Both the position numbers and the translations under genes were made by a program. A stretch of 57,673 nt of DNA from an uncultured Armatimonadia bacterium (GTDB lineage Bacteria; Armatimonadota; Zipacnadia; Zipacnadales; UBA5352), in contig CAZAHB010000005.1 of the NCBI GenBank assembly GCA_964484945.1, positions 1-57,673 on the forward strand, read 5' to 3'. This document shows positions 1,203-15,304 of this stretch, piece by piece (position 1 is the first letter of the stretch; each line of letters begins with the position of its first letter). Below the pieces are notes generated by a model, which saw nothing but the letters and a program-made list of their open reading frames with translations, did not search any database and was not told the origin of the DNA.

Positions 1203-4200
1203 CTACTCCCCCTCCAGCCACTGGACGACATTGCGGAGCAACTGCTCGCACGCCTCAACCGTCAGTTCCCCTGTCGGGTTCTCGCGCTTGATGACATACC
1301 GATCCGGGGATGGTTGCACCACCAGTACCGACCCGCCCGCCTGCGCCTGGACGATGGATGGATTTCCGTTACTGTCACTCGCCAGCACGGTCCAGTCGTC
1401 ATCGATCGAGGTGATGCTGTCGTATGAGATGCACCCTCCAAGCAGACCCGCCCCATCGGCAAAGAGCGGGTGATCGGGCTTGACGACTTCCCCGAGCATC
1501 GTGGTCTCGTTGGAGAGCGTCAGAGGCAGAGGCAGGAACGCAGGCTCGTGTGTCATGTCCTGAAGCTGAATGAAGGCCACCCGCCCCCCGGCGTCAATGA
1601 AGTCCAGAAGCAGCGGCCAGTTGCTATTGAGGCCCCCAAAATCCTTATAGTGTGCCTCAGATCCAACCAGCAGCGCGTCGTAGTTCGCGAGCACCTGCGG
1701 GGTCAGCTCGGCGACTGTGGGAAGTTCCACGCCCATCTGCACCAGCGCGCCCGCGACCGGGTCGCCCTCGCCGGTCAGCAGGGCGAGCCCCTCGCCGATG
1801 GCCAGGTCCCGCGCGTGGCGGGTTCTCGCTGAAAGCGTACCCTCGGTTTCGCCGGCTGTGTAGCGCAGCTTGATCTCTCCCTGACCGTTACCGGTGAGCT
1901 GAATCGTTGGGCTCAGCGTCACTCCGCCTCCGGCCGTCCACTCGACCTCGCTGCGGTCCGCGGTCAGCCCGTCGGGCAGTGAGGTGATTTCGAGGCCGGC
2001 GGGGATCTCCTGCCGGCTCGGATTGTTCACGCGAAGCGCCAGCAACCCCGGTCCGTCCGCGGGCAGGTAGACCGTATCTGACATCCCCACGGTCGGATCA
2101 GGCGCCGGTGGCGCCGGCATCTCGGTCATCCCCCACCGCTGCATGGCACTGAGCGCGAAGGGCGTCATGCGAAGCTGCATCGCGTAGCCCTTGCCTGAGC
2201 CCGATGGATTGTGGTTGAGGATCATATCGCCCATCGTCCTGACCAGCATCTCGCGGTATATCTCCGCGTCGGTCAACTCATAGGCGTAGGCGAGCCCTTC
2301 GTAGGTTTGCGTACTCGCGCCGCTGGCCCGGTCGTCAAACTGCGGGCACTGGGCGTACTGGAAGCCGTTTTCCTCGGGGACCCACATCCGCCAGCGCAGC
2401 CAGTCCACCGAGCGGGTCAGCGCGTTCTTCACGTCCGGGTCCGGGTCAACCTGGTCGAGCATCTTCAGGCCCGTCATGACCACGCCGGTCATAAACGCCT
2501 TGCCGCCCATGTGCTTGACCTCGTGCTCACACTCGCCGATGGGATGTATGAATGTGCCGGTTCCCGGGTCCTGCCGGGCGATTGCGTTCTGGGTGAAGAG
2601 CCGGGCCGCATTGAGGTACCACGGGTGCGGAATGACGTGATAGCCGCCCAGAGAGGCGATTGTGGACCAGCCCTGGGCGCGATGGACCCACTTGTGCGTG
2701 GCACGCGCCTCCTCACGCGCGAACCAGTCGCACAGCAGCCTGCCGGCCTCCAGGTAGCGGCGGTCGCCGGTCAAACACCAGGTCGTCATAACGCCCTGGG
2801 ACCACATGTGTCCGGTGTTCCAGATGCCCGCGTGGAACCAGTACTTCGCGTCTTCGGGGCGCTCGAGGTCCCAGCCGCCCACGTGGCCGATGCAATGCGC
2901 CTTCTGCAGGCCCAGCACAGACTCATTGGGGGCGACGCTGACTGTATCCACCGACGCGGTGTGGCGCGCCGCCTCCTCCGCGCGGTCGAAGAAGCGCCAG
3001 TCACCGGAGCGGACGAACTGCAGCAATAGGCCCCACTGCAGGTCATACTCCTGGTTGGTCCAGTTGACCCAGCGCTCCCCGTGCGTGTCGCCGAAGTTCA
3101 TCCAGTCATACTCGCGCACACGCTGCCGGCGCTGCTCCAGGCGCTCGAACCCCTCATCAATCCACTCCTGGTAGTGCTCGAAGGCGCCCTCCCGCTCGGG
3201 TTCGAGATCGCCGAAGCCGCCTGACGCGCAGTAGTGCTCGGGCCAGGCCGCCAGGAGCGGCATCTGTTGCCATGCATCGGCGAGATGCTCGTTGATCGCC
3301 TGGTCCTCGCCGAGCGCGTAGAAGAGCATGTCGTAGCTGAGCGACACGCCCATCGGGACCATGTACTGCCCGTCCCGACACCAGTAGTAGTACCGCGTCC
3401 GTTCAAAGGGCGTGAGGCCTTCATCCGCGTACTGGTCGGCGGGCAGGTCGGGGAATATCTCCGCAGTGACCGTGCGGCCCTCGGCGGAGAAAGCCTTCGG
3501 ATACGTCTGCCAGAAATCGCGCAGAGCGACCGTCATCCCGCGACTGTCCGAATGCAGGCTTCCTGTCGGGGTAATGTGCCCGGAGTGCTCCTCGGACTGC
3601 CCGTCTTCGGTAACGATGTAGTGGTTCTCGTAGTCGTGCAGCACGCGCCTGGACGGCGAACTCGCGTCACCGGGAAACTGCACCGGAATGTCGAGCGACT
3701 GTATGTTCGTCATCGTCGGCGGCCGCACCGCTTCCCCCCGGTCGCCGATCAGCGTGAAGACCGTCGGCACACCCGCGAAGCCTCGAATGAAGTACATCCG
3801 GCAGCGCCAGCCCAGTGAGGTTCCTGCATCGCCCGCGAAGTGGCCCTCGGCCAGCACGACCGTGCGGACCGGGCCTTCCTCCTCCACGACCAGGCGCTCG
3901 ACCGGCGCGCCGGCGGTGGAGTAGCGGTTGCCCTTTGCATCCATCAGCACTGCACCATCGGTGGCGGAGATGCACTGCTCATCCGCAGCGAAGGTACCGT
4001 CACCGTCGATGTCGCGCCAGATGTCTCCCGGCGGCGAGAAGCTCTCGCGGGAGATGTCCGCGCGCAGCACGTCGGTGGTCACGCGCAGACCGGAGGATGT
4101 CTCCTCAACCCGAATCGGCTCGGGGACCTCCGGACGCGCCACGCCCTCGCCGTACTCCAGCACGTACTCTCCGCCCTCGTGCATGAGGCTCACGAGAAGC

Positions 4201-6410
4201 CACTTGACCGATCCGTCCGGCCACCATCCAAGCTCCGTGAAGTCCGCCGCGACCGGCTCCCCGCCCTGCAGCACGCGGCAGTGTTCGGCGTCGCGCAGGT
4301 GTCCCTCGGGGATCGGCACACCGCCCCTGACTGGCCACGTCGGGCGATCCTCGAGCGGATCGGTGACCGCAAGCTGAATCCGCGCGCGATCCACGCTGCA
4401 GCGCTCGGGGCGCGGGAATTCGGCCACGAACGTTCGCGTCTGTCCGGTCACCTGGCCCTCACCGGCACCCGCGATCACGCGGTAGCTGTAGGTGGCACCG
4501 CGCTCGAGATCCTCGAGGCGAACACGGTGGTTATATGTGGCGCGCTCCTCGCCGGCCGTCTGGTTAAGCGCATCTCCTCTGCCCCACTCGACTCGCGTCA
4601 GACACGGCATGTTCGTCAGCGCGCAGATATCGACATCGACCGCATCGCCCGACTGGGCCGGCGGGCAAAACGCCGTCACGTTCTTCAGTGACAGGCTCTG
4701 CGGCTCCAGCATTTGCTCGGTGAGCGTCAACTCCGTAATGCGAGCGTCCTGGGCGGGTCCATCAGCGATGAACTCGATCGGCGTACCCTCGTCAAGTGAC
4801 ACCTGCTCGGGCGTCGAGAACACGTGGATCAGGCCATCGTTGTCGGCGGCGACCATCGTCGCCACGGTCTCGCCATCGACGCGAAGCTGAACCTCCTCGC
4901 GGCGCTCTGCAGAGTCCTGCAGCACCACGTTAAGGTGATAGTCGCCCGCAACGGGTGACGTGACCGTCGCGGTTGCGCCCTCCTCATCGGCTACGACCGC
5001 GTGGTCCTCCAGGTGCATGCCCTCAAGGTCGGCTTCCGCGAGGTCGACGTGCAGCGCGTCCATCTCGCGAAGCTGCTCGCGCCAGTACAGCCAGGGGCTC
5101 TCCACCCAGACCCCATCGGAGAGGACCTCCGACAGAGATCCCACGCGCGGCTTGGTGCGCTGGCTTTCACCCGGGCCGCAGACGGTGAACCACTCCGTGT
5201 TGTCATTCCCGCCCCCTTTGACCTTCTGCTGGCTCAACACGTGGGCGCGGTACTCGGTGTTCCCCTCTTCATTGTGATAAAGCTGCAGGTCCATGGAGAA
5301 GTAGATCGAATTGCCGTCAATGACGCCCCGCACATCTCGATCCTTCGCAAGCACATCGGCATTTCTGATGCTCCTGCCGAACGCTCCGGCGTTGCAGGTG
5401 AGCATCATGTCGGTGCCGCGCACGTGGCCATTGTCCTGGCGGCCGGTGGAGCGGTCGTTGTCGCAGTCGAGGTAGAGGATGATCAGCGTGCCGCCCGAAT
5501 CATCGTACTCCTCCGCGAAGTCAATCCTCCATATCCAGCGATTGCCGGCCGCGTTACCGAAGTAGATCTTTCCGATGTCATTGGCGTGCTCGAACGTATC
5601 GTCTTCGTCCCCGCCCGGCTTCGTGCCGTCCTCGCCGATCAGGTGCATGCTGTCGGCGTGCTCCGATGACATGCCCAGGACTTCCTCGACCGCATCCGAG
5701 ATACCGTCACCGTCGGCGTCCGGCTCATCCGTGCTCAACTCGGCAACGGGCGCACGCTCCGGCGGAGGCCCGATGCGCGGCTTCTCCGCATCACGCCGCT
5801 CGGGCAGGACAACCGGATGAAACTCCATCGGGTCGGAATCACTGTTTTGCGGAGGTGAGACGTGAGAGAGCACCCTGAAGCGCGGTTGGCCCGGCCCTTC
5901 GCCGAGCGGGAGGTCGGCGCAGACGTACATGGTATCGCCCACCGCCATCATGCGCAGTGGGCCCTGCGCGAGGCTCTTTGTGTGCTCGGTGAGGTTGAAC
6001 TCGCCATTCGCCTGGACGTACATCAGGTCGGTGCCGCGGGCCCATTCGGCATCCTGCCGGCCCGTCGTGAGGTCGCCGTCCACATCGAGGTAGAGGATGA
6101 ATGTGTTGTTCTCGCCGACGTAATCGTCCGCGAATGTGATCTTCCACAGCCAGCGGTCCTGTGCCACATTCGCGAGGTACACATCGACGAAGTCCGGCGC
6201 TTCCTGATGGTTGTTCGATACACTCTCATCATCGTCGCCGATGACGCCGTCGTGCCATTGCAGGGCGAATTCCTCGGCATGATCCGGGGCGGCACCAAGC
6301 TCCTGCTCGACAGTGTCGGCGATGGTGTCACCGTCGGCATCAGCCTGCTGGGCCAGACAGGGCGTAATGGCCATAGCGAGGATCACAAAGGCGATAGCGA
6401 TGCGCTGCAT
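1203..6410 (-). CDS. large secreted multidomain protein (1735 aa) with exo-rhamnogalacturonan lyase (PcRGLX/YetA-like) core
   Basis: Signal peptide, two ~200-aa N-terminal repeats, an FN3-like segment (TRVEWG..NHRVRLEDLERGATYSYRV), then GVPIPEG..WWPDGSVKWLLV and YDWMNFGD..NQEYD..RAEEAARHTASVD..GHMWSQG motifs typical of this family; GGAGG RBS. Confidence 0.7.
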   Translation of the reverse strand: MQRIAIAFVILAMAITPCLAQQADADGDTIADTVEQELGAAPDHAEEFALQWHDGVIGDDDESVSNNHQEAPDFVDVYLANVAQDRWLWKITFADDYVGENNTFILYLDVDGDLTTGRQDAEWARGTDLMYVQANGEFNLTEHTKSLAQGPLRMMAVGDTMYVCADLPLGEGPGQPRFRVLSHVSPPQNSDSDPMEFHPVVLPERRDAEKPRIGPPPERAPVAELSTDEPDADGDGISDAVEEVLGMSSEHADSMHLIGEDGTKPGGDEDDTFEHANDIGKIYFGNAAGNRWIWRIDFAEEYDDSGGTLIILYLDCDNDRSTGRQDNGHVRGTDMMLTCNAGAFGRSIRNADVLAKDRDVRGVIDGNSIYFSMDLQLYHNEEGNTEYRAHVLSQQKVKGGGNDNTEWFTVCGPGESQRTKPRVGSLSEVLSDGVWVESPWLYWREQLREMDALHVDLAEADLEGMHLEDHAVVADEEGATATVTSPVAGDYHLNVVLQDSAERREEVQLRVDGETVATMVAADNDGLIHVFSTPEQVSLDEGTPIEFIADGPAQDARITELTLTEQMLEPQSLSLKNVTAFCPPAQSGDAVDVDICALTNMPCLTRVEWGRGDALNQTAGEERATYNHRVRLEDLERGATYSYRVIAGAGEGQVTGQTRTFVAEFPRPERCSVDRARIQLAVTDPLEDRPTWPVRGGVPIPEGHLRDAEHCRVLQGGEPVAADFTELGWWPDGSVKWLLVSLMHEGGEYVLEYGEGVARPEVPEPIRVEETSSGLRVTTDVLRADISRESFSPPGDIWRDIDGDGTFAADEQCISATDGAVLMDAKGNRYSTAGAPVERLVVEEEGPVRTVVLAEGHFAGDAGTSLGWRCRMYFIRGFAGVPTVFTLIGDRGEAVRPPTMTNIQSLDIPVQFPGDASSPSRRVLHDYENHYIVTEDGQSEEHSGHITPTGSLHSDSRGMTVALRDFWQTYPKAFSAEGRTVTAEIFPDLPADQYADEGLTPFERTRYYYWCRDGQYMVPMGVSLSYDMLFYALGEDQAINEHLADAWQQMPLLAAWPEHYCASGGFGDLEPEREGAFEHYQEWIDEGFERLEQRRQRVREYDWMNFGDTHGERWVNWTNQEYDLQWGLLLQFVRSGDWRFFDRAEEAARHTASVDTVSVAPNESVLGLQKAHCIGHVGGWDLERPEDAKYWFHAGIWNTGHMWSQGVMTTWCLTGDRRYLEAGRLLCDWFAREEARATHKWVHRAQGWSTIASLGGYHVIPHPWYLNAARLFTQNAIARQDPGTGTFIHPIGECEHEVKHMGGKAFMTGVVMTGLKMLDQVDPDPDVKNALTRSVDWLRWRMWVPEENGFQYAQCPQFDDRASGASTQTYEGLAYAYELTDAEIYREMLVRTMGDMILNHNPSGSGKGYAMQLRMTPFALSAMQRWGMTEMPAPPAPDPTVGMSDTVYLPADGPGLLALRVNNPSRQEIPAGLEITSLPDGLTADRSEVEWTAGGGVTLSPTIQLTGNGQGEIKLRYTAGETEGTLSARTRHARDLAIGEGLALLTGEGDPVAGALVQMGVELPTVAELTPQVLANYDALLVGSEAHYKDFGGLNSNWPLLLDFIDAGGRVAFIQLQDMTHEPAFLPLPLTLSNETTMLGEVVKPDHPLFADGAGLLGGCISYDSITSIDDDWTVLASDSNGNPSIVQAQAGGSVLVVQPSPDRYVIKRENPTGELTVEACEQLLRNVVQWLEGE
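5180..6341 (-). repeat. internal tandem domain duplication (2 copies, offset 207 aa) in the 1735-aa protein
   Basis: Aligned pairs: DADGDTIADTVEQELG/DADGDGISDAVEEVLG; RWLWKITFADDY/RWIWRIDFAEEY; ILYLDVDGDLTTGRQD/ILYLDCDNDRSTGRQD; RGTDLM/RGTDMM. Confidence 0.85.
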
Positions 6411-6586: not shown

Positions 6587-7270
6587 TTACGGCCACGCAG
6601 GGTCCATGCGGAAGTCCTTCTTTGCGTAGGTCGTGGGCGGGTAGTTCGCGTGAGGTGCGCGTTGTCCACTGACCCACTTGCTGTGACCGTCACAGAAGGC
6701 GTAGTTCGATCCGCCATTATGCTGCGCATAGCGCCAGCGGAAGTTCTTGGAGCCGGAGTCGGCTTCATTGAACCACCTACCGTAGGGCAGCGTGCCCTCC
6801 TGCTCGACGAGGAGGATGACATTCGCCGGTTCGGTGATCCGGGCCAGCTTCACCGGTTGAATGTAGCAGAAGTTGTAGTTCCAGCCGTAGTCAACATCGT
6901 AGTCGATGGGCACGGAGCCGCCGCCCGCGGGCGCTCCACGGATGTAGTCGTATCTGCCGCTGGGGCACCGCAGGATCTGCTCGTTCTTCAGGTAGGGCTC
7001 TATCCGCACGAACCAGAAGGTGTCGCCCGCGGGGTCCAACAGCCGGAGGGGGTCAGAGGTATCGCTCGTGTGATCCTGCATGGGCAGCTTCTCATCGTAA
7101 TCCTGAGCATACATGAGCACACCCAGGGCGATCTGCTTCATGTTGCTGAGGCACGAGGACTGCCGCGCTTTCTCGCGCGCTCTCGCGAATACAGGAAAGA
7201 GAATTGCTGCAAGGATCGCAATGATGGCGATCACGACCAGCAATTCGATCAGGGTGAAACCGCGCTTCAT
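6587..7270 (-). CDS. DUF1559 / prepilin-type N-terminal cleavage-methylation protein with H-X9-DG motif
   Basis: [46 protein letters not shown].. and C-terminal [16 protein letters not shown]; GGAGAGG RBS before ATG 7270. Confidence 0.93.
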
Positions 7271-7311
7271 GATGATCACCTCTCCAAAGTGATGTCGCTA
7301 TTGTCTATTGT

Positions 7312-8055
7312 TTAGAGCAATGGCTCTCCGTCACCTTCCCGGGTGGCACACTTTTTCGCCACAATCATCAGCCACGGCACATGAAGAAAAGGCGACCACG
7401 TGTCTTCGGAGGTGCCGGCGAGTTCGCGGGCTCCGGCGACGCGTTCTCGCTGGCGGGCGGTCAGGGGCAGGTCAGCCAGCAGGTCCAGCGCCTCCGGCTC
7501 GGCTTCGCGCGGGATGTGCGCAAACTCCACCCAGGGCTCCAGTCCCGCCTCTTCGGCCAGTTCAGGAAGTTTCCGGCCCATGAGCGGATCGGCGCCGGCG
7601 CGCTCCAGGGCATCGAGCCAGACCACGCGGAGGCCGAGATCCGGGTGTTCGAGCATGCCCCCATAATCCGGCTCCAGCGCGACCAGCACGCCGCCTGCGC
7701 AGAGAGCCCGCGCCGCCTCGTGGATGGCCCCATGCGGCTGATCGATCCACATGAGCGCGTTCTGGAAGAAGACAAGGTCGAAGCTCCCCCCGGCGAAGGG
7801 CAGATCACGGGCATCGGCGGCGGCAGACACGTGAGACGCAGGGGCGATGTCGATGCTCACGACCTCGCCCCGCGCGCGGCGGCGAAGCTCATCTGTCACA
7901 AAGCCGTGGCCGCACCCGACCTCCAGCACGCGCTCACGGCGACCGATCCCGGCCCTCCGCAGGGCACGCGAACGCGGTCCCTGCAGCCAGTCAGCCAGAA
8001 GCCCTGACAGCTTGCGCGACGGGCGCTCGGGGCTGGCGTGCTCCTCCCCGATCAG
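7312..8055 (-). CDS. class I SAM-dependent methyltransferase (start uncertain, probably CTG at 8055)
   Basis: Motif I VLEVGCGHG, ADARDLPFAGGSFDLVF, GGVLVALEPD; no ATG/GTG/TTG between the upstream stop and motif I. Confidence 0.82.
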   Translation of the reverse strand: MIGEEHASPERPSRKLSGLLADWLQGPRSRALRRAGIGRRERVLEVGCGHGFVTDELRRRARGEVVSIDIAPASHVSAAADARDLPFAGGSFDLVFFQNALMWIDQPHGAIHEAARALCAGGVLVALEPDYGGMLEHPDLGLRVVWLDALERAGADPLMGRKLPELAEEAGLEPWVEFAHIPREAEPEALDLLADLPLTARQRERVAGARELAGTSEDTWSPFLHVPWLMIVAKKCATREGDGEPLL

Positions 8056-9863
8056 CGGCCACCTCCCGCGCAAGCGCACGCACACGCGCAGCCCGCGCAG
8101 GCGCATGCACAGCCGCCGCCTCCGCTGTAGCCGCCGCCACTGCCGCTGGATTCGGCCATCGACTCGAGGAAGTCCATGCCGACCTTGTCCACGCCTGAAA
8201 GGTCCATGACACCGCCATCCGTGATGCCAACCGAGACGGGATCCATCGTTGAGGCCATGTTGCCGGCCACGTTTTCAGACCATCCGGCGAATGATGCGGC
8301 GACATCGCCGGCGGTCGTCCGCCCTCCCACGGCCGGGCCGCTGTCGGACCGTCCGCCGAGGGCCGGGCCTGCCCACCGTGGCGAGTAGTGATAGCCGCCG
8401 GTGTGCCAGGTGTGGAAGTGGCGCCGGCGGTCGGTATCCAGCATCAGCCACCCGATGTTCTGATCGACGAAGTCGTCTCGCTTCTCGACATCGCCGATTG
8501 TGCGGGCTTCCTTCCACGCCTTGTATACGATCGATTCGTAGTACTCCTTCGTACGCTCCAGATCGAACCCCTCCATGCGCTCAACCACGCCGTCAACGAG
8601 CGCCTTTACCTCCTTGCTGAGGTCAAGGTCGGGGATCGGGGTGCCGGGTTTCTCCATAATCGCGTCAAGGAATGGCTGCTCGTATCCGCGAATGACACTG
8701 CCACTCTTCGCGGCGATCTTCCGTCGCTCACCGCGAGTCGTCCGGTACGGTTCCGCCACCTCGACGGTGAGCGGATCGTCGCGCGTCATCGCCACGAGCC
8801 CCTTCTGCAGCATTCCGAAGATGAGCAGTGTGAGCACATCGCCCAGCGCCCGCACAAGCAACACTGCAGCCTCCGGGGCGGTGAGCCCGCGCTTGATCTG
8901 ACCGCCGGGTACCGACTCGATGGGCGGGAGATAGGAGCGCTTGCTGGACTCCAGCAGGCGCTCGCCGAAGATGAACAGCAGGATCAGCACCGGGATGCCG
9001 ACCAACTCGATGGCCGGCCCCACACCATCGGGGAGCGTCCACGTTACAGGGATCGCGATCACGAGCGGGATGAAGAGGCAGGTGCCCGTGCCGGCGGTGA
9101 GGCGAAAGTACCAGATGCTGAATGCGACGAGCATCAGAATGCCGACAATGGTGCGCGCGCCGCTGCTCTCGGTCCACCACTTCCATGCCAGGTCCCAGAC
9201 GGTCTGCTTGATGACCCGATCCATCCAGTCCTTCGGGAAGGAGACGTCAACCATGTGCTCGCCGGTCATGGTGGTGGCGGGAAAGCGCCACATGACGGCC
9301 TTCTTGCTTTCCAGCTCTGCCTTCTGGGTGAACTTCTTCAGACGGTACTTCACCCGCTGAAGATCGACGGAATCGGGCAAATAGACCGCGATCAGCAGGT
9401 CAGTGGTGTCCGTGACAAAGGCCGACCCCCAGTAGGTGGGTGTGATCTGCAGAATCGCCAGCTTCGAATCGGTCGTGTCCTGATAGACCATGTCGGGCAT
9501 GGTGGCCTGGAAACGGAACGTACCGGTCTCACCGGGCTGGACAGCCGGACTAATCGGGACCTCAACGCCCGTGTCGATGTAGGTGGACGGCTTGATACCC
9601 GACAGCGGCGTCCCGTCAACCGACGCGCTCATGTTCGAAATGTCGTAGTCGTCATGCGGCAGGCCCATGTCCACTACATCGATCGGATGGGCGCCCTGGT
9701 TGCAGTGGAACTGGATCGTGTAATCAAGCGTCACGGAGGCGTCCGGGTTCGGCGTTAACTCCAGGACCATCCGCGGCACCGAGAACGAGTAGTCCTGAGC
9801 TGCCGCGGGCATCGCCAGCACGATCAGCACAGCGACCAAAAGTGTCCATCGCGCGATCCTCAC
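8052..9863 (-). CDS. DUF2207/TIGR04222-like integral membrane protein with Gly/Ser linker and Cys-Ala repeat C-terminal tail
   Basis: Signal peptide, ~210-aa extracytoplasmic beta-rich domain, 3-4 hydrophobic helices, GLTAPEAAVLL segment, cytoplasmic domain, end SSGSGGGYSGGGGCACACAGCACACACAGGGR*; GTG start overlaps the upstream stop (GTGA). Confidence 0.8.
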   Translation of the reverse strand: MRIARWTLLVAVLIVLAMPAAAQDYSFSVPRMVLELTPNPDASVTLDYTIQFHCNQGAHPIDVVDMGLPHDDYDISNMSASVDGTPLSGIKPSTYIDTGVEVPISPAVQPGETGTFRFQATMPDMVYQDTTDSKLAILQITPTYWGSAFVTDTTDLLIAVYLPDSVDLQRVKYRLKKFTQKAELESKKAVMWRFPATTMTGEHMVDVSFPKDWMDRVIKQTVWDLAWKWWTESSGARTIVGILMLVAFSIWYFRLTAGTGTCLFIPLVIAIPVTWTLPDGVGPAIELVGIPVLILLFIFGERLLESSKRSYLPPIESVPGGQIKRGLTAPEAAVLLVRALGDVLTLLIFGMLQKGLVAMTRDDPLTVEVAEPYRTTRGERRKIAAKSGSVIRGYEQPFLDAIMEKPGTPIPDLDLSKEVKALVDGVVERMEGFDLERTKEYYESIVYKAWKEARTIGDVEKRDDFVDQNIGWLMLDTDRRRHFHTWHTGGYHYSPRWAGPALGGRSDSGPAVGGRTTAGDVAASFAGWSENVAGNMASTMDPVSVGITDGGVMDLSGVDKVGMDFLESMAESSGSGGGYSGGGGCACACAGCACACACAGGGR

Positions 9864-11122
9864 TGCACCTCACCACCTTCGCGGTCATCGCTCCAGCCAT
9901 CCGGGTCCCTGGGGCAGTCTGCATTGCAGATCGGCAGGTCCGGGCAGTCCGCACACCTCGTGGGCGCCTTCAGTCGCTCGCGGTAACGCTCAAAGACATC
10001 GTGCGCCCAGATCTCGCGCCATGGCGATTCGAGGATATTCCCGGCGCTCTCAGGGCCACGCGCGGGCCAGACGGTGCCGTCGGCACTGACACGGACGGTC
10101 ACGTCCGCCGATGTCCGCGGGCCCTCGCGCACCTGCTGAGCAAGGCCCTTCGCGGAATTAAAGCGTTTCGGGGGCGCCCAGAGGTAGCGAGAGTTCGTGC
10201 GCTCGGACAGTTCGAAGAAAGTCGTCGCCACCTGCGGCAGTGCCCTGGCCGGCAGCGCGCCCGAGGCATCGCCGGCCTCATCCTCGTCCGGGCAGGCGAT
10301 GGCGAATCCGACGACGTTGGTAACACCCATCTCCAGCAGGCCCTCCGCAATGTCATCCATCTCGGCGAGGTTGCTGTCCATCAGCGGCCACTGCGCGACC
10401 GGCGCAAGCTCCAGTTCCCGGCACTGCTCCACGGCCGATTTGAACGCCTCGCAATCGCCCACACCCGCGGTCTCGTCATGCCCGTCGGGATTACTGCAGA
10501 CGTACAACATGTCGAGGTGGTCGAGGCCGGCCATCGCGCACTTCTCGATCACGTCAGCGGGAAGCCATCCCGCCAGCGCCCGCAGCCCACAGATCATGCC
10601 GATGTCCTCAGCGGCCTCCACCAGCAGCGCGAGGTGCGCCCGTTCGCCATCAGAGGCGGCCTGTATGGAAACGTGCGGCACGCCCGCATCCCACAGTGCG
10701 CGGATGATCTCACGGAAGCGCTCGGGCCTGCACTGATCGACGTCCGCGCGCAGCGGCGCTGCCAGCTGGCGCTCCCAGTGCGAGAGTTCAGGGTCGGTGA
10801 GATTCGTCACCGGGTAGTTGTCACCGGGCTTCGCGAGGTCCTCGATCATGTTGTGGACGTGGCCCAGGTCGGCGCGGACCTGATTTTCGGGAGCCCCGCT
10901 GAACTCCGAGGTGATCTCTTCGATGATCTCCTGATCGGGGCGCTCCTCCAGCACGCCGGCGGCCATCGTCACTCCGACCGGGGACAGCCACGCTGCCTCG
11001 GCGGCGTTTGCCAGCAGCAGGCCGCTGCCGTCAGGGTCCACTCGCAGATGAAAGCGCGTCGGCCACTCGCCCACCAGCATCTCATACGGCCGGATCGTCA
11101 CGTCGCTTGCGCTCTCTGACAC
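9860..11122 (-). CDS. degenerate radical SAM/SPASM paralog with PqqD/RRE-like N-terminus; lacks CxxxCxxC
   Basis: Collinear with the upstream enzyme (HLRVDPDGSGLLL, APLRAD, LWDAGVP, LAGLDHL, GNIL..W..IW) but missing the cluster-binding segment; keeps only CADCPDLPICNADC. Confidence 0.8.
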   Translation of the reverse strand: MSESASDVTIRPYEMLVGEWPTRFHLRVDPDGSGLLLANAAEAAWLSPVGVTMAAGVLEERPDQEIIEEITSEFSGAPENQVRADLGHVHNMIEDLAKPGDNYPVTNLTDPELSHWERQLAAPLRADVDQCRPERFREIIRALWDAGVPHVSIQAASDGERAHLALLVEAAEDIGMICGLRALAGWLPADVIEKCAMAGLDHLDMLYVCSNPDGHDETAGVGDCEAFKSAVEQCRELELAPVAQWPLMDSNLAEMDDIAEGLLEMGVTNVVGFAIACPDEDEAGDASGALPARALPQVATTFFELSERTNSRYLWAPPKRFNSAKGLAQQVREGPRTSADVTVRVSADGTVWPARGPESAGNILESPWREIWAHDVFERYRERLKAPTRCADCPDLPICNADCPRDPDGWSDDREGGEVQ

Positions 11123-12540
11123 CGGCTCATCACCTCATTTCTGGCCACCCGCTCCAGCGGACAGCCTCCGCCACATACCCGAAGATCCTCGCATTCGAGA
11201 CATTCGGCAGGCAGGTCAGCGTTCTCCGGCCGCTCCCGGCGGAAGCGAATCCGGGTGAAAAGCTCAGACTCCCAGATGCGATCCCAGCGGTCACGGAGGA
11301 TATTGCCGACCGGCTCGTAGTAGGACTGGCAGGGCAGGACATCCCCGTTGGGCTCCACGCAGATGGAATACTCCGCGGCGTTGCAGAATGTGAGGCCGAC
11401 GTCCACCTTCATGGGCGAAAGCTCACAGTGCCGCGTCACGGTGTACCAGATGAAGCGCATATCGCGCTCGGCGGCCCGGTCGCGCACGCTCTCGAGGACC
11501 TCGCGCAGCCTGCCGATGCTCAGCGCGGAAAGGTTTGCGGCCCCGCATCCGGCGTGGATCATCCCGTTCATCGCAAAAGTGCGCAGGCCCAGGTCGTGCA
11601 GGAAGTCAACGATCGGCTCGGCCTCGTCGGCGTTCTCCTCGATCAGCGTGGTGTTCGTGATCGTATGCAGGCCGCGCTCGACACAGTTGCGGATGCCCGC
11701 CACCGTCTCCTCGAAGGCCTCCGCGCGCACAATGCGGTTGTGAAGCTCAGCACGGTGTGAGGCGAGTGTAATCTGCACGTGATCGAGGCCCGCGTCCATG
11801 AGTCCATCGATCAGTTCGCGCTCGCGCAGGCGCCGCCCGTTGGTGTTGAGACCGCAGATCATCCCCAGGTCCTCGGCATGACGGACGATCTCCGGCAGGT
11901 CATCGCGGAGCGTCGCCTCTCCGCCGGTGAGGATCACGTAGGGGACGCCGATCGCCCACAGCCGGTCGAGGACCTCGCGCCAGCCGTCCGTGTCGAGCGC
12001 CGGCATCTCCCGCCGCTCGGGCTCATTGTAGCAGTGCGCGCAGTCGTTGTTGCAGGCGTACGTGAGCGCGAGATCGGCCTTGAGCGGGGCCTGCGCGCGG
12101 ATCGAGAGGGGCTCGGGCTGCGGGATGCCTGCTTCGCACACGCGGCATCCCTCTGAGGGGCGGCTGATCTTCGCTATCGCCGAGCGCACCCGTTCGTACT
12201 CCGCCTCCAGTCCAAAATCGCGCGCGCCCGCGAACCGGGTTCGCAGATAGACGAGGGCGCGATCGGCGGGCACATCATCCAACGCCAGCCCCGCGCATTC
12301 TGCCTGCAGCGGAGAGAGATGCAGCGTGTCGGTCCCGTTCACGATCAGCAGGCCCGTACCATCATCGTGAGTGCGCAAATGCATGCAAACGCGCCCTTCG
12401 GGGCGCTCGAAGCGCTGGTGACGCAGTGAGACGCCGTCACGCCCGTGTGACAGAGCGCCGACTCGCGCGCCCAGTCGGCCGAGGTCCTCCCGCAAGCCGG
12501 CCTTCAGACGCGCGAAGAGCCCACCGTCATCGGCTACCAC
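11098..12540 (-). CDS. radical SAM/SPASM enzyme with N-terminal PqqD/RRE-like domain
   Basis: CNNDCAHC (12031-12054), LTGGEAT, LNTNG, SPASM cysteines C..FCNAAEYSICVEPNGDVLPC..CLECEDLRVCGGGC; extra CRVC before the core. Confidence 0.92.
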   Translation of the reverse strand: MVADDGGLFARLKAGLREDLGRLGARVGALSHGRDGVSLRHQRFERPEGRVCMHLRTHDDGTGLLIVNGTDTLHLSPLQAECAGLALDDVPADRALVYLRTRFAGARDFGLEAEYERVRSAIAKISRPSEGCRVCEAGIPQPEPLSIRAQAPLKADLALTYACNNDCAHCYNEPERREMPALDTDGWREVLDRLWAIGVPYVILTGGEATLRDDLPEIVRHAEDLGMICGLNTNGRRLRERELIDGLMDAGLDHVQITLASHRAELHNRIVRAEAFEETVAGIRNCVERGLHTITNTTLIEENADEAEPIVDFLHDLGLRTFAMNGMIHAGCGAANLSALSIGRLREVLESVRDRAAERDMRFIWYTVTRHCELSPMKVDVGLTFCNAAEYSICVEPNGDVLPCQSYYEPVGNILRDRWDRIWESELFTRIRFRRERPENADLPAECLECEDLRVCGGGCPLERVARNEVMSRCQRAQAT

Positions 12541-12878
12541 TTCGGCTTCTCCTCAAGCTGATAGGAGGTGCCACAGTACGGGCACTTCACGTAGATGGCC
12601 CCTTCCTTCATCTCGATGGCATCGGAACTTAGTTGCGCACCGCACGATTCGCAGCGCAGCTTCTCAAGTTCGGTGTCGCCGGTGAAGTCAACCTTGTGGG
12701 TCACCTTCATCTCCGGGCCCCTGGAGCGGGCGAGGTAGATCATGAAACCGGCGCCGCCAAGCAGCACGATTCCGATGATGACGCGTGGAACAGTGTTGCC
12801 CTGCCCGGACCCGACAAGGAAGACCAGGCCGGCGAGGCCGAGCACGGCGCCGAGCAGATATCCGGCTGTCTTCATCAC
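12534..12878 (-). CDS. small membrane protein, two TM helices plus C-terminal zinc ribbon
   Basis: Two hydrophobic stretches then CESC..CPYC; stop overlaps the start of the radical SAM gene. Confidence 0.8.
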   Translation of the reverse strand: MMKTAGYLLGAVLGLAGLVFLVGSGQGNTVPRVIIGIVLLGGAGFMIYLARSRGPEMKVTHKVDFTGDTELEKLRCESCGAQLSSDAIEMKEGAIYVKCPYCGTSYQLEEKPKW

Positions 12879-13000: not shown

Positions 13001-15304
13001 CTACTCCACAACTAACTCGTGATGGCCGACGCCCCACCGGCCGATGCTGACGATAACGCGCCCGTCCTCGATGTGCCAGCGCGGGCGGGGACCGTAGCTG
13101 GATCGCTGCAACGGTGCGCCCTCCACGACGGCCGCGAATGCATCCTCAATACCGTGCACCACCACCGTGCAATCGCGCTGATCCTGCGCGCCGGGGAAGT
13201 CCCCCTGTGCCGCATCGCAATGCACGCCGACGCCGTCCGCGACCGGTTCGGTGGTGAAACGCTGCGTTCGGAATGCCCCGTCCTCGAAGTCATACGTGCG
13301 CCCGTCATCCTCATAGAGCGTCATTTCACCCGCTGCGCCGGCCCACACGTGGATGCTAAGCTCATCGAGCGGTCGCTGGCCGACATAGTCGGTCACCGGC
13401 CCCATGGGGATGATAGCACCTGCGGGGGCGAGCAGCGGCCCACCGCGCATGTCCGGCACCTCGGGAGTGCGCCAGCCGCCGCCATCGACGGGGTCACCGG
13501 TCCACACGTTGTACCACAGGCCCTCGGGGAGCCAGACTTCATCGGTGAAGCAGCCGACGAGCAGCGAATCGCCGAGCATGAACTGGTGCAGGCACTCATC
13601 GGCCTCCTGCTCGTGCGGCCAGAGCAGAGGCATCGGGCGCATGATGGGCATGCCGGTGCGGTGCGCCTTCCACGCCATGGAGTAGAGGTAGGGGATCAGG
13701 CGGTAGCGGAACTGGACGTACTGCCGGAAGACCTCCTCCATCTCCTCGCCCTGCAGCCACGGGTGGCGGAAGTAATTCCACGAGTTCAGTTGCGCCCACG
13801 GCAGCAGGCAGCCGAAATGAATGCCGTCCGCGCGGTAGGACATCATATCCACAGTGTTGAGGCCGTGCCCGGACATCGAGAGATTCAGGCACGCGACGAG
13901 CGGCTCCTCTCCCCCGCCGGTGTCGCCCGTCCAGGTGCCGGTCCAGCGCTGCACACCGGCCCACCCGTCCGGAGTGAAGGGGAAGGTGCGCTCGGGAACT
14001 GCTGAATCCCGCTCGTCCGTCTCACGGAAGCCCAGGTACATCTGCTTCGAGTACAGCAGCGGGTAGAGATTGTGCATCTGATCGTCGGTCATCCCGTTCC
14101 CCCAGAGCCGGTCGGGGTGCTCGAGGCACTGATAGGCGCCATCCTGCTTGAACCAGTGCGCGCCCTCGAAAACAAACTCCTTGAGGTGCTCGAACCACGG
14201 TTCCTCGGGCCGGGTGATGCGGTCGAGGCGGCGCTGACCCGCGCTCAGGTGCTCGTCCTGCTCATGGCCTTCGGCGAAAAACTCCTGATCCTCATCACGC
14301 GCCGCATCCGCCTCGCGGACCTCATCGTCAACGTGCCGCTCTTCTTCGTAGGAAAGATCGTAGTCATTGCACAGCCACAGCCCCGGTTTGAAGCCCATGC
14401 GCTGTGCGGCGGCGAAGAATGTGTCGCCGGTGCGGGCGTAGCCAGGCACGGGGAAGCGGTCCGGATGCCAGCACTTGTCCACCGTGGCATCGTAGTTCGT
14501 CTCCATCCAGCCCGGCTCCAGTCCAATGGCATCACAGGGGATCTCCCGGTCGCGGAAGTTCCGGCAGTCGCCGAGAAACTCGTACGCGTCAGCCTGTGTG
14601 CGGCAGATGAACCACAGCCCAAAGCCCCACTTCGGCGGCAGGAACGGCCGACCGGTCACGCGCGTGTAGCGTTCGATGATCTCCGCCGGCGACGGCCCGT
14701 AGATTACGTAAAGGTCCAGCACCTCGTTCTCGCACTCGAAGCCGAACCAGTCATCGGATGTAGCGCCGAGATCGTACCACACGCGGCGCGTGGTGTTCAT
14801 CAGCAGCCCGTAGCCGCGCGAGGAGAGCACGAAGGGGATCGGGATGTACTCCTCGACGTTGCGGATCCACAGGTCGCCCTTCGTCCCGCGGTGCTCGATG
14901 CGGTCGCGCGTCTGATCGCCGAGACCGAAGAAGCGCTCGCCTGCGGGAAGCTCGAACCGCGCGCGGAAGCCCGGGTCTGGCCCGAGTATCGGCGGCTCGG
15001 CGCTGACAAACAGCCCCTCTCCCTCGGCACCGGAGACTGCCAGCGAGCCGTCCGCCGCCACGTCCACGGTCATGAACTCACTGGCCGCGAGCGAGGCCCC
15101 CTGTCCGGTCTCCGCGCGAACCGCCACCTCGTCCCACTCGCGCCGCCACAGATCGTACCGCAGCAGCGGCGACATCGGAGGCTCATCACCCTGCCATCCC
15201 CGGATGCGCGCGATTCCCGGCGTGAGGAAGGACACGTCTACGGTCGCGTCATCTGCGGTTAGCGAAAGACCTCGGTCGGTCGTCTCTGCGTTCGAAAGCT
15301 CCAC
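13001..15304 (-). CDS. glycoside hydrolase family 31 (alpha-glucosidase/alpha-xylosidase-like)
   Basis: ERFFGLGDQ, IPFVLSSRGYG, TGRPFLPPKWGFG, FKQDG (nucleophile), WTGD (acid/base), RYRLIPYLYS, QFMLGDSLLV, LYEDDG; GGAG RBS. Confidence 0.92.
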   Translation of the reverse strand: MELSNAETTDRGLSLTADDATVDVSFLTPGIARIRGWQGDEPPMSPLLRYDLWRREWDEVAVRAETGQGASLAASEFMTVDVAADGSLAVSGAEGEGLFVSAEPPILGPDPGFRARFELPAGERFFGLGDQTRDRIEHRGTKGDLWIRNVEEYIPIPFVLSSRGYGLLMNTTRRVWYDLGATSDDWFGFECENEVLDLYVIYGPSPAEIIERYTRVTGRPFLPPKWGFGLWFICRTQADAYEFLGDCRNFRDREIPCDAIGLEPGWMETNYDATVDKCWHPDRFPVPGYARTGDTFFAAAQRMGFKPGLWLCNDYDLSYEEERHVDDEVREADAARDEDQEFFAEGHEQDEHLSAGQRRLDRITRPEEPWFEHLKEFVFEGAHWFKQDGAYQCLEHPDRLWGNGMTDDQMHNLYPLLYSKQMYLGFRETDERDSAVPERTFPFTPDGWAGVQRWTGTWTGDTGGGEEPLVACLNLSMSGHGLNTVDMMSYRADGIHFGCLLPWAQLNSWNYFRHPWLQGEEMEEVFRQYVQFRYRLIPYLYSMAWKAHRTGMPIMRPMPLLWPHEQEADECLHQFMLGDSLLVGCFTDEVWLPEGLWYNVWTGDPVDGGGWRTPEVPDMRGGPLLAPAGAIIPMGPVTDYVGQRPLDELSIHVWAGAAGEMTLYEDDGRTYDFEDGAFRTQRFTTEPVADGVGVHCDAAQGDFPGAQDQRDCTVVVHGIEDAFAAVVEGAPLQRSSYGPRPRWHIEDGRVIVSIGRWGVGHHELVVE

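What the first reader, a model, noticed from the sequence alone, without database searches (positions are those of the whole stretch)
8052..8160. CACACAG-CACACACAG-GGR C-terminal tail is selected at the protein level
Seen: the protein ends SSGSGGGYSGGGG-CACACAGCACACACAGGGR*, with seven Cys alternating with Ala. The codons vary synonymously (TGT GCA TGC GCC TGC GCG GGC TGC GCG TGT GCG TGC GCT TGC GCG), so this is not a slipped DNA microsatellite. Inference: a core peptide on a flexible linker. Alternating Cys-Ala places all thiols on one face of an extended strand, suited to serial crosslinking or binding a metal or Fe-S cluster. The terminal GGGR could be a recognition or cleavage signal.
Basis: partly seen in the sequence, partly recalled or inferred. 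Interest (0 to 1): 0.8.

Follow-up and report, generated by a model that had tools for sequence, protein, structure and literature searches.

The report
Conserved Cys-Ala tail paired with radical SAM enzyme
A membrane protein ends in a Cys-Ala repeat that is almost identical in bacteria from at least nine phyla and nearly always sits beside a peptide-modifying radical SAM enzyme, which points to an undescribed protein modification system whose chemistry is unknown.

Summary

The tail is under strong protein-level selection:
- It is the most conserved part of the protein (0.97 column identity, against 0.5-0.76 elsewhere).
- It occurs in every C-terminally complete homologue, down to about 30% identity.
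- It was also found by a query that lacked the tail.
- It is encoded by 120 different DNA strings that vary synonymously at every codon.
- The general form is (CA)2-5-G/S-(CA)3-4-GGGR.

The same motif occurs on a second scaffold that shows no homology outside the motif: ~320-aa single-pass membrane proteins of Firmicutes, including Hungatella hathewayi.

In every arrangement the motif gene lies next to an orthologous enzyme with a PqqD-like recognition domain, a radical SAM (rSAM) core and a SPASM domain. The window cluster also holds a catalytically dead paralogue of that enzyme, a methyltransferase and a membrane zinc-ribbon protein. The tail is predicted to be disordered and cytoplasmic.

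Best reading: the tail is a tethered RiPP-like (ribosomally made, post-translationally modified peptide-like) core that the enzyme modifies. The chemistry was not determined; Cys thioether cross-links are my leading guess. No Pfam model, NCBIfam model or paper covers it.

The parts
8052..8111 (-). Core motif C585-R603, (CA)3-G-(CA)4-GGGR, plus the TGA stop codon
   Evidence: Translation and codons. Invariant columns C587-G602 in a 79-sequence alignment. Mean column identity is 0.97, the highest of any segment.
8112..8150 (-). Gly/Ser-rich flexible linker S572-G584 (SSGSGGGYSGGGG)
   Evidence: AF2 pLDDT is below 50 for residues 571-603. Composition is conserved but the sequence varies among homologues.
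8181..8204 (-). Conserved DLSGVDKV motif (D554-V561) upstream of the linker; a possible leader-like recognition element (inference)
   Evidence: D559 is invariant; L555, G557 and V561 are at least 90% conserved. The distant subfamily carries a different motif, VTNPxP, at this position.
8271..8327 (-). Conserved GGRTxxGDVAASFAGWxEN segment (G513-N531) inside an otherwise poorly modelled region
   Evidence: V521 and F525 are invariant; T516, D520, S524, G527, W528 and E530 are at least 90% conserved.
8052..9863 (-). Gene for the 603-aa motif-bearing membrane protein. Layout: signal peptide 1-22, beta-sandwich ectodomain 27-210, three TM helices 234-308, cytoplasmic winged-helix plus helical domain 329-485, disordered C-terminal region
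   Evidence: ORF. Hydropathy and K/R distribution. AF2 model with mean pLDDT 83.5. No Pfam or NCBIfam family.
9860..11122 (-). Pseudo-radical-SAM/SPASM paralogue (420 aa). It keeps the N-terminal RRE-like region and a CxxCx5CxxxC motif but lacks CxxxCxxC
   Evidence: SPASM hit only. 26% identical to the rSAM over its full length, with the cluster motif deleted. 50 of 51 orthologues lack CxxxCxxC; the single exception looks like an ORF-extension artefact.
11098..12540 (-). RRE-radical SAM-SPASM enzyme (480 aa); CNNDCAHC at C163-C170; eight invariant Cys at positions 372-460
   Evidence: Pfam Radical_SAM 4e-28 and SPASM 1e-10. Sequence. Invariant columns. 13 of 49 orthologues hit PqqD. AF2 pLDDT 86.3 with an N-terminal beta-sheet plus three helices. 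Foldseek top hits are SkfB, SuiB, CteB, PqqE and anSME.
12534..12878 (-). Membrane zinc-ribbon protein (114 aa): two hydrophobic segments, then CxxC...CxxC
   Evidence: Translation. Weak zinc-ribbon Pfam hits. Conserved at the head of the cluster in many loci and 35-46% identical in the distant subfamily.
7312..8106 (-). Class I SAM-dependent methyltransferase (264 aa as the ORF is called). Every possible start codon lies inside the (CA)n coding region
   Evidence: Methyltransf_11 4e-17. Below every NCBIfam cut-off. Present downstream of the motif gene in 55 of 86 loci, with another 8 behind a tandem paralogue.

Best explanation
The (CA)3-G-(CA)4-GGGR tail is a tethered, RiPP-like core peptide. 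It hangs on a disordered Gly/Ser linker at the cytoplasmic end of a three-pass membrane protein. The adjacent RRE-radical SAM-SPASM enzyme (11098..12540) modifies it after translation. In this lineage three further genes probably assist: a catalytically dead paralogue (9860..11122) that likely acts as a substrate-binding partner, a membrane zinc-ribbon protein, and a SAM methyltransferase that probably finishes the product. Because the motif is nearly invariant, the product is more likely a permanent functional group on the protein (a cross-linked, redox-active or metal-binding element) than a diffusible natural product.

Shown: the motif and its conservation; the genomic coupling on two scaffolds that share no detectable homology outside the motif and in three gene orders; the enzyme's domain architecture.

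Predicted, not measured: the cytoplasmic topology.

Inferred: that the tail is the substrate.

Guess on chemistry (about 0.3 on its own): the enzyme forms Cys-S to carbon thioether links of the sactionine or ranthionine type onto neighbouring Ala or Gly residues. The alternatives are per-residue conversion of Cys (to formylglycine or thio-oxazole) or epimerisation of Ala.
For: Conservation:
- All 119 complete proteins among the 120 best homologues (41-77% identity) carry the motif.
- A HMMER scan of 1.84 billion representatives with a tail-less 570-aa query gave 680 hits. Of the 150 listed, 111 end in (CA)n-G/S-(CA)m-GGGR. The rest are fragments, frameshifted calls or near-variants.
- The tail is the most conserved segment of the protein, and its codons vary synonymously.

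Coupling to the enzyme:
- 59 of 64 long-type genes with enough upstream sequence have an rSAM/SPASM gene directly upstream on the same strand.
- In the reverse test, three of three rSAM orthologues sit in the same cluster.
- A distant subfamily with (CA)4-G-(CA)3 keeps the zinc-ribbon protein, the rSAM (40-44% identity) and a methyltransferase in a different order. One member uses a TylF-type methyltransferase that gave no BLAST match to the window enzyme.
- The short-type proteins match the window protein only over the 25-residue motif (hhalign). They form a two-gene cassette with an rSAM that is 30-34% identical.

Enzyme type:
- It has CxxxCxxC, a full SPASM domain and a PqqD-like N-terminal domain.
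- Its closest solved structures are peptide maturases: SkfB, SuiB and CteB.

Accessibility:
- A signal peptide plus three TM helices, and K/R enrichment after TM3, place the C-terminus in the cytoplasm.
Against: - No modification has been observed; everything rests on comparative genomics and models.
- Four of 64 loci have no rSAM gene within the sequence held (L014, L077, L080, L089).
- The regions preceding the motif differ among the three protein types. A single conserved leader for the RRE is therefore not evident, and recognition may rest on the core itself.
- The internal Gly shifts position (3+4, 4+3, 2+4, 5+3). This fits poorly with one fixed cross-link topology.
- CxC spacing is also typical of metal-thiolate proteins.
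- Similarity to characterised maturases is generic. Every NCBIfam score is far below its cut-off, so it says nothing about chemistry.
Confidence: 0.65

Rival explanations
1. The tail is an unmodified metal- or iron-sulfur-binding element, like metallothionein-type CxC thiolate ligands. The neighbouring rSAM either acts on a different substrate or exchanges electrons or clusters with the tail.
For: Six to eight thiols at i, i+2 spacing lie on one face of an extended strand. The number of CA units varies from 2+4 to 5+3, which a metal-binding array tolerates more easily than a fixed cross-link pattern. The tail is flexible and cytoplasmic.
Against: - The Ala positions of the last block (CACACACAGGGR) are as invariant as the Cys positions in the sequences inspected from several phyla and both scaffolds. 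A pure ligand array does not explain this.
- The enzyme carries a peptide-recognition (PqqD-like) domain and resembles peptide maturases.
- In the Firmicutes loci examined the cassette is only the enzyme plus the motif protein, so no other candidate substrate gene travels with it.
Confidence: 0.15
2. The tail is a sacrificial scaffold. A small cofactor or natural product is built on it and then cleaved off, as with PqqA for PQQ or MftA for mycofactocin. GGGR or the Gly linker would be the cleavage site.
For: An invariant core is typical of cofactor precursors. An rSAM/SPASM enzyme with an RRE is the first enzyme in the PQQ and mycofactocin pathways (established knowledge). PqqE and MftC are among the similar families.
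Against: - No peptidase gene appeared next to the cassette in the arrangements whose genes were listed.
- Using a 320-600-aa membrane protein once per product molecule would be very costly.
- In the short type the motif is internal.
Confidence: 0.08
3. The repeat is a low-complexity or slippage artefact of GC-rich DNA with no specific function.
For: The DNA is GC-rich (about 64%), and TGC-GCG units look microsatellite-like at first sight.
Against: - Codons vary synonymously at every position across 120 distinct DNAs, including Firmicutes loci.
- The motif is the most conserved segment of the protein.
- A tail-less query recovers it across the family.
- It occurs on a second scaffold that shows no homology outside the motif.
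Confidence: 0.01

Closest known systems
Sactipeptide and ranthipeptide systems (SkfA/SkfB, SCIFF CteA/CteB, subtilosin AlbA)
   Same: Both pair an RRE-rSAM-SPASM (or twitch) enzyme with a Gly-preceded, Cys-rich core encoded next to it. SkfB and CteB are among the best structural and sequence matches for the window enzyme.
   Different: In the known systems the substrate is a free 40-60-aa precursor peptide with a leader, and the product is usually exported. Here the core is part of a 320-600-aa membrane protein, is invariant rather than variable, and has strict Cys-Ala alternation. The enzyme scores far below the family cut-offs: StsB 102 vs 625, SkfB 96 vs 300, AlbA 62 vs 850.
Anaerobic sulfatase-maturing enzymes (anSME/AtsB) acting on sulfatases
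   Same: An rSAM/SPASM enzyme modifies a Cys in a full-length protein rather than in a small peptide. anSMEcpe is among the structural matches.
   Different: The anSME target is a single C/S-x-P/A-x-R site and the enzyme has no RRE (established knowledge). Here the target has six to eight Cys in a CA repeat and the enzyme has an RRE.
NCBIfam Cys-rich rSAM target systems (ACGX-repeat system TIGR04340, FibroRumin system TIGR04133/TIGR04135)
   Same: Both are repetitive, Cys-rich targets encoded beside an rSAM/SPASM enzyme.
   Different: All scores are far below the cut-offs: TIGR04340 63.7 vs 400, TIGR04133 78.2 vs 425, and TIGR04135 10.6 vs 45 for the tail itself. The repeat unit also differs (CA, not ACGX).
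rSAM plus SPASM-only or pseudo-rSAM pairs (GeoRSP system TIGR04303/TIGR04304; TIGR04347 pseudo-SAM/SPASM)
   Same: An active rSAM/SPASM enzyme is paired with a paralogue that lacks the SAM cluster.
   Different: Scores are below the cut-offs: 101.8 vs 400, 17 vs 300 and 30.5 vs 525. The pseudo-enzyme is dispensable here: it is absent from the short-type and distant long-type cassettes.
DUF2207 membrane proteins
   Same: The overall layout matches: an N-terminal beta-sandwich ectodomain, TM helices and a Gly-rich C-terminal region. Support is limited to a faint PF09972 hit for one short-type protein (E 0.024) and one precomputed PF09972 hit (P0507).
   Different: The window protein has no DUF2207 hit, even at E up to 10 for its C-terminal half. 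The held literature on DUF2207 does not mention a CA motif or an rSAM link.

Membership tests
Radical SAM/SPASM peptide-modifying maturases (superfamily; applies to the neighbouring enzyme 11098..12540) | CxxxCxxC motif that binds the SAM-cleaving [4Fe-4S] cluster | tested here: met
   C163-N-N-D-C167-A-H-C170. These Cys are invariant in 49 orthologues. The motif is present in 46 of 46 locus orthologues. Pfam Radical_SAM 4e-28.
Radical SAM/SPASM peptide-modifying maturases (superfamily; applies to the neighbouring enzyme 11098..12540) | C-terminal SPASM domain with Cys for auxiliary clusters | tested here: met
   PF13186 1.3e-10. Invariant Cys at 372, 386, 394, 404, 447, 450, 456 and 460.
Radical SAM/SPASM peptide-modifying maturases (superfamily; applies to the neighbouring enzyme 11098..12540) | RiPP recognition element (PqqD-like domain) | tested here: met
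   13 of 49 orthologues hit PF05402, best E 9e-7. The AF2 model shows strands 38-75 followed by three helices 77-125. Alignment to SuiB spans 462 columns, which suggests it includes SuiB's N-terminal domain. The window protein itself does not reach significance against PF05402.
Radical SAM/SPASM peptide-modifying maturases (superfamily; applies to the neighbouring enzyme 11098..12540) | Demonstrated modification of the adjacent peptide or protein | not testable with these tools
   Requires mass spectrometry or an enzyme assay.
Sactipeptide / ranthipeptide (SCIFF-type) RiPP | Small stand-alone precursor peptide with leader and core | tested here: not met
   The motif is part of a 603-aa membrane protein or of ~320-aa membrane proteins.
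Sactipeptide / ranthipeptide (SCIFF-type) RiPP | Maturase scores above the curated family cut-off | tested here: not met
   StsB 101.8 vs 625, SkfB 95.9 vs 300, AlbA 61.9 vs 850.
Sactipeptide / ranthipeptide (SCIFF-type) RiPP | Cys-S to C-alpha, C-beta or C-gamma thioether in the product | not testable with these tools
   No product data exist.
ACGX-repeat rSAM system (TIGR04340) | Enzyme above the TIGR04340 cut-off and an ACGX repeat in the target | tested here: not met
   63.7 bits vs cut-off 400. The repeat unit is CA, not ACGX.
anSME-sulfatase maturation | C/S-x-P/A-x-R target motif in a sulfatase domain | tested here: not met
   The tail contains no such motif and the protein has no Sulfatase domain. 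The sulfatase gene at 17148..18533 is not part of the conserved cluster.
DUF2207 (PF09972 / PF20990) | Significant match to the Pfam models | tested here: not met
   No hit for the window protein. Only a sub-threshold hit for one short-type protein (15.3 vs 24.4 bits).
FibroRumin Cys-rich RiPP (TIGR04135) | Target peptide above the cut-off | tested here: not met
   10.6 bits vs 45, E 0.4.
GeoRSP system (TIGR04303/TIGR04304) | Both proteins above the curated cut-offs | tested here: not met
   101.8 vs 400 and 17 vs 300.

The most novel reading that the evidence does not exclude
The rSAM enzyme converts the (CA)n-G-(CA)m-GGGR segment into a new protein-derived prosthetic group. This could be a ladder of thioether cross-links or an array of modified thiols that binds metal or carries electrons. 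It would be built into the cytoplasmic face of DUF2207-like membrane proteins. That would make it a widespread, previously unrecognised class of post-translationally generated cofactor, present from Armatimonadota to human-gut Firmicutes, possibly involving new rSAM chemistry on Cys-Ala pairs.
Probability: 0.25. Interest if true: 0.9.

Novelty: new variant of a known kind. Interest (0 to 1): 0.8.

Why it matters
rSAM/SPASM maturases are a major source of new protein and peptide chemistry, but nearly all known substrates are small free peptides. This system differs in several ways:
- The core is invariant and tethered to a membrane protein.
- It is found in at least nine phyla, and the short-type search alone returned 3,324 proteins. 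Carriers include the cultured gut bacterium Hungatella hathewayi, where the protein WP_006779027.1 is annotated only as 'hypothetical protein'.
- No Pfam model, NCBIfam model or paper in the held library covers it.

The system gives enzymologists a clean test case. The minimal version is a two-gene cassette, and a 12-19-residue synthetic peptide could serve as substrate. It could also give a first functional handle on DUF2207-like membrane proteins, whose role is essentially unknown.

Tried and rejected
- Pfam and NCBIfam scans of the tail protein, of its C-terminal half and of the tail peptide alone gave nothing above noise. Scans of short-type proteins gave the same result.
- Literature searches found no relevant paper. 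The terms were the peptide string, 'DUF2207' with 'radical SAM', 'ACGX', 'SPASM' with 'Armatimonadota', and 'CACAC' with 'radical SAM'. Hits for GCACACAG were DNA primers.
- Foldseek on the tail-protein model matched only the ectodomain beta-sandwich, to M1 aminopeptidase N-domains and OST subunits. This says nothing about the tail.
- A PDB sequence search found nothing for the pseudo-enzyme and only generic methyltransferases for the methyltransferase.
- The promoter and terminator scan of the cluster was uninformative.
- I considered a link between the nearby sulfatase gene (17148..18533) and anSME-type chemistry. I rejected it because the sulfatase is not part of the conserved cluster and the tail lacks the CxPxR motif.
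- I considered whether the hydrophobic stretch 334-352 is a fourth TM helix, which would put the tail outside the cell. I rejected this because AF2 models it confidently as a helix of a winged-helix domain followed by a beta-hairpin, and it contains Arg and Asp.
- The slippage or microsatellite explanation is rejected.
Full report
**1. The observation**

The 603-aa ORF at 8052..9863 on the minus strand ends ...FLESMAESSGSGGGYSGGGG-CACACAG-CACACACAGGGR*. The core C585-R603 occupies 8055..8111. A degenerate DNA pattern for just (CA)3GGG matches the window once and none of 100 shuffles.

**2. Is the motif selected at the protein level?**

Four lines of evidence say yes.

- *Close homologues.* Of the 120 best homologues (41-77% identity, mostly Armatimonadota MAGs), 119 are C-terminally complete and all 119 carry the motif. 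Of these, 74 have (CA)3-G-(CA)4-GGGR, 42 have (CA)2-G-(CA)4-GGGR and 3 end in GGGE.
- *A tail-less query.* That search pre-selects candidates by shared words, so I repeated it with a 570-aa query lacking the tail, using a full HMMER scan of 1.84 billion representatives. It returned 680 hits. Of the 150 listed, 111 end in (CA)n-G/S-(CA)m-GGGR with n=2-5 and m=3-4. The other 39 are fragments, frameshifted gene calls or near-variants such as ...SCACAGGGR. I saw no clearly full-length homologue with a different C-terminus. A distant subfamily (about 30-35% identity) has the Gly shifted, giving (CA)4-G-(CA)3-GGGR.
- *Conservation within the protein.* In a 79-sequence alignment the tail has mean column identity 0.97, against 0.49-0.76 for every other segment.
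The 121 motif copies are encoded by 120 different 69-nt strings. Both Cys codons are used about equally, and all four Ala and all four Gly codons appear at every position. The final Arg and the stop codon were outside the search pattern, yet Arg is present in 119/121 copies (all six codons) and a stop follows in 115/121.

Slippage or low complexity is therefore excluded.

**3. Where the motif occurs**

By record titles, the hits come from Chloroflexota, Planctomycetota, Armatimonadota, Hydrogenedentota, Myxococcota, Nitrospirota, Elusimicrobiota, Sumerlaeota and Bacillota. The Bacillota include Lachnospiraceae, Ruminococcaceae and Hungatella hathewayi WAL-18680.

The Firmicutes copies, plus a few others (L022, L109), sit on a different protein. 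It is about 310-390 aa with an N-terminal anchor, an ectodomain, one TM helix and a basic Gly/Tyr/His-rich stretch. The motif follows and is internal...GGG-CACACAG (or CAC[AV]S(S))-CACACACAGGGR-AGC[ST]xKDFY....

Profile comparison of the window family with one such protein aligns only the 25 motif residues (probability 98.9%). The search with this short-type protein returned 3,324 hits with E <= 0.001.

The element shared by both short and long forms is CACACA-GGGR, preceded by further CA units. The first block tolerates A-to-V and G-to-S/SS changes; the last block does not.

The sources call these proteins 'hypothetical protein', for example WP_006779027.1 of H. hathewayi.

**4. Gene neighbourhood**

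In the window the genes are co-directional, and most overlap or abut:

| Coordinates (- strand) | Product |
|---|---|
| 12534..12878 | Zinc-ribbon membrane protein, 114 aa |
| 11098..12540 | rSAM/SPASM enzyme, 480 aa |
| 9860..11122 | SPASM-only paralogue, 420 aa |
| 8052..9863 | Motif protein, 603 aa |
| 7312..8106 | Class I methyltransferase, 264 aa |

A tblastn search of these proteins against the 120 motif loci shows the same order across phyla.

- Of 64 long-type genes with at least 1.5 kb of upstream sequence held, 59 have an rSAM/SPASM-family gene directly upstream on the same strand. One more lies behind a tandem paralogue, and four have none.
- The methyltransferase follows in 55 of 86 loci, with 8 more behind a paralogue.
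- In the reverse test, three rSAM orthologues chosen without reference to the motif all lie in the same cluster. Two show the motif; the third contig ends too early.
- Seven loci, from MAGs labelled Hydrogenedentota, Elusimicrobiota, Brocadiia, Nitrospiraceae and Pseudomonadota, have only the active rSAM.
- The distant (CA)4-G-(CA)3 subfamily has a different order: zinc-ribbon, motif protein, rSAM, methyltransferase, or motif protein, TylF-type methyltransferase, rSAM. Its zinc-ribbon protein is 35-46% identical and its rSAM 40-44% identical to the window proteins. Methyltransferases of more than one type therefore appear in these clusters.
- In Firmicutes the system is a two-gene cassette, rSAM (457-476 aa) plus motif protein, found in either order.

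The minimal conserved unit is thus the rSAM plus a motif-bearing membrane protein.

**5. The enzymes**

The 480-aa protein has the CxxxCxxC motif (C163, C167, C170) and eight invariant Cys between positions 372 and 460. That is enough to ligate two auxiliary clusters, although cluster ligation is an inference.

Thirteen of 49 orthologues hit Pfam PqqD, with best E 9e-7. The AF2 model (pLDDT 86.3) shows an N-terminal beta-sheet followed by three helices, the RRE fold. Foldseek ranks SkfB, SuiB (462 aligned columns), BlsE, CteB, PqqE, DesII and anSME highest. By sequence, the best solved relatives are SkfB and PqqE. Every NCBIfam family scores far below its cut-off, so this is an uncurated clade.

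The 420-aa protein is a full-length paralogue (26% identity, E 1e-33). It keeps the RRE-like N-terminus and a terminal CxxCx5CxxxC motif but has lost the SAM-cluster motif. The loss is conserved: 50 of 51 orthologues lack the motif, and the one exception looks like an ORF-extension artefact.

**6. The motif protein**

The AF2 model (pLDDT 83.5) and hydropathy give this layout:

| Residues | Feature |
|---|---|
| 1-22 | Signal peptide |
| 27-210 | Beta-sandwich ectodomain |
| 234-256, 261-275, 282-308 | Three TM helices |
| 329-485 | Winged-helix-like and helical domain |
| 571-603 | Disordered region that includes the tail |

The TM2-TM3 loop has no Lys or Arg, while the 26 residues after TM3 have five. 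This fits a cytoplasmic C-terminus. In the short type the segment after the last TM helix is rich in Arg, Gly and Tyr, which points the same way. Topology remains a prediction.

**7. Interpretation**

Several observations point the same way:
- an invariant Cys-rich segment on a flexible linker;
- a cytoplasmic location;
- a neighbouring enzyme whose architecture (RRE, rSAM, SPASM) is that of peptide maturases;
- linkage that persists across two scaffolds sharing no detectable homology outside the motif and three gene orders.

Together they make 'tethered core peptide modified by the rSAM' the best explanation (confidence 0.65).

The chemistry is not determined. I favour Cys-derived thioether links onto neighbouring Ala or Gly carbons, for two reasons. 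The Ala positions are as invariant as the Cys positions, and the nearest characterised enzymes (SkfB, CteB) make such bonds. The variable position of the internal Gly argues against one rigid topology, however. Per-residue conversions or epimerisation therefore remain open.

The rivals are an unmodified metal or cluster ligand array (0.15), a sacrificial scaffold for a released cofactor (0.08) and an artefact (0.01).

**8. Comparison with known systems**

The system works like a sactipeptide or ranthipeptide, or anSME-type, maturation system. It fails the membership tests for each specific family: curated cut-offs, precursor type and target motif. The motif proteins have no Pfam or NCBIfam model. 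The motif string appears in no paper of the held library. I rate it a new variant of a known kind: rSAM/SPASM post-translational modification, but of a membrane-protein tail with an invariant Cys-Ala core.

**9. Limits**

- MAG taxonomic labels may include mis-binned contigs.
- No experimental data exist.

Noticed in passing
window 8052..8106 (- strand): The methyltransferase ORF starts inside the (CA)n coding region. Its ATG at 8106 is formed by the Ala-Cys codon pair GCA-TGC read in another frame, and the only other possible starts (GTG, GTG, TTG) also lie within the motif. This gives an overlap of up to 55 nt. In closely related Armatimonadota loci (L028, L052, L065, L101) the methyltransferase alignment also reaches residues 3-6. 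In other phyla the alignment starts later (residue ~17-41) and begins about 50-200 nt downstream of the motif.
   Followed up: partly
window 9860..9863, 11098..11122, 12534..12540: Each gene of the zinc-ribbon, rSAM, pseudo-rSAM, motif-protein series overlaps the next, by 7, 25 and 4 nt. This suggests translational coupling within one operon.
   Followed up: no
L006, L018, L032, L038, L062, L067, L093, L097 (Anaerolineales / Chloroflexota): These loci carry two tandem copies of the long-type gene. Both copies carry the motif in L018, L032, L038 and L067. In the other four loci the second copy is cut off at the locus edge.
   Followed up: partly
window 11098..12540, residues C132 and C135 of the rSAM: A conserved CxxC pair (C132 is at least 90% conserved) lies in the linker between the RRE-like domain and the rSAM core. 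Its role is unknown; it could be an extra metal site.
   Followed up: no
window 6587..7279 (- strand); L028 1..1764: A DUF1559 / H-X9-DG prepilin-like gene follows the cluster. The closest relative (L028, Armatimonadota) has three tandem copies there. The gene is not conserved with the cluster in other phyla.
   Followed up: partly
L121 1341..2546: In one Firmicutes contig, a separate 401-aa protein with a DUF2207_C domain lies about 2 kb upstream of the rSAM / motif-protein cassette.
   Followed up: no
P0160, P0007, P0146, P0145 (homologues): Rare motif variants exist: Trp replacing one Cys (CAGWACACACAGGGR), Ala to Val (CACACVCAGGGR), GGGR changed to CGGR, and a very short ...SCACAGGGR. I did not check whether these are sequencing errors or real.
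   Followed up: no
L126 9805..12348: In this long-read contig, gene calling split the motif gene and fused part of it to the methyltransferase, apparently through frameshifts. The motif is still present, as CACACAGCACACACAGGGV*.
   Followed up: partly
window 1203..6410, 13001..15304, 17148..18533: The flanking genes encode a 1735-aa PcRGLX-like protein, a GH31 glycosidase and a sulfatase. This is a carbohydrate-degradation context that is not conserved with the cluster elsewhere.
   Followed up: partly
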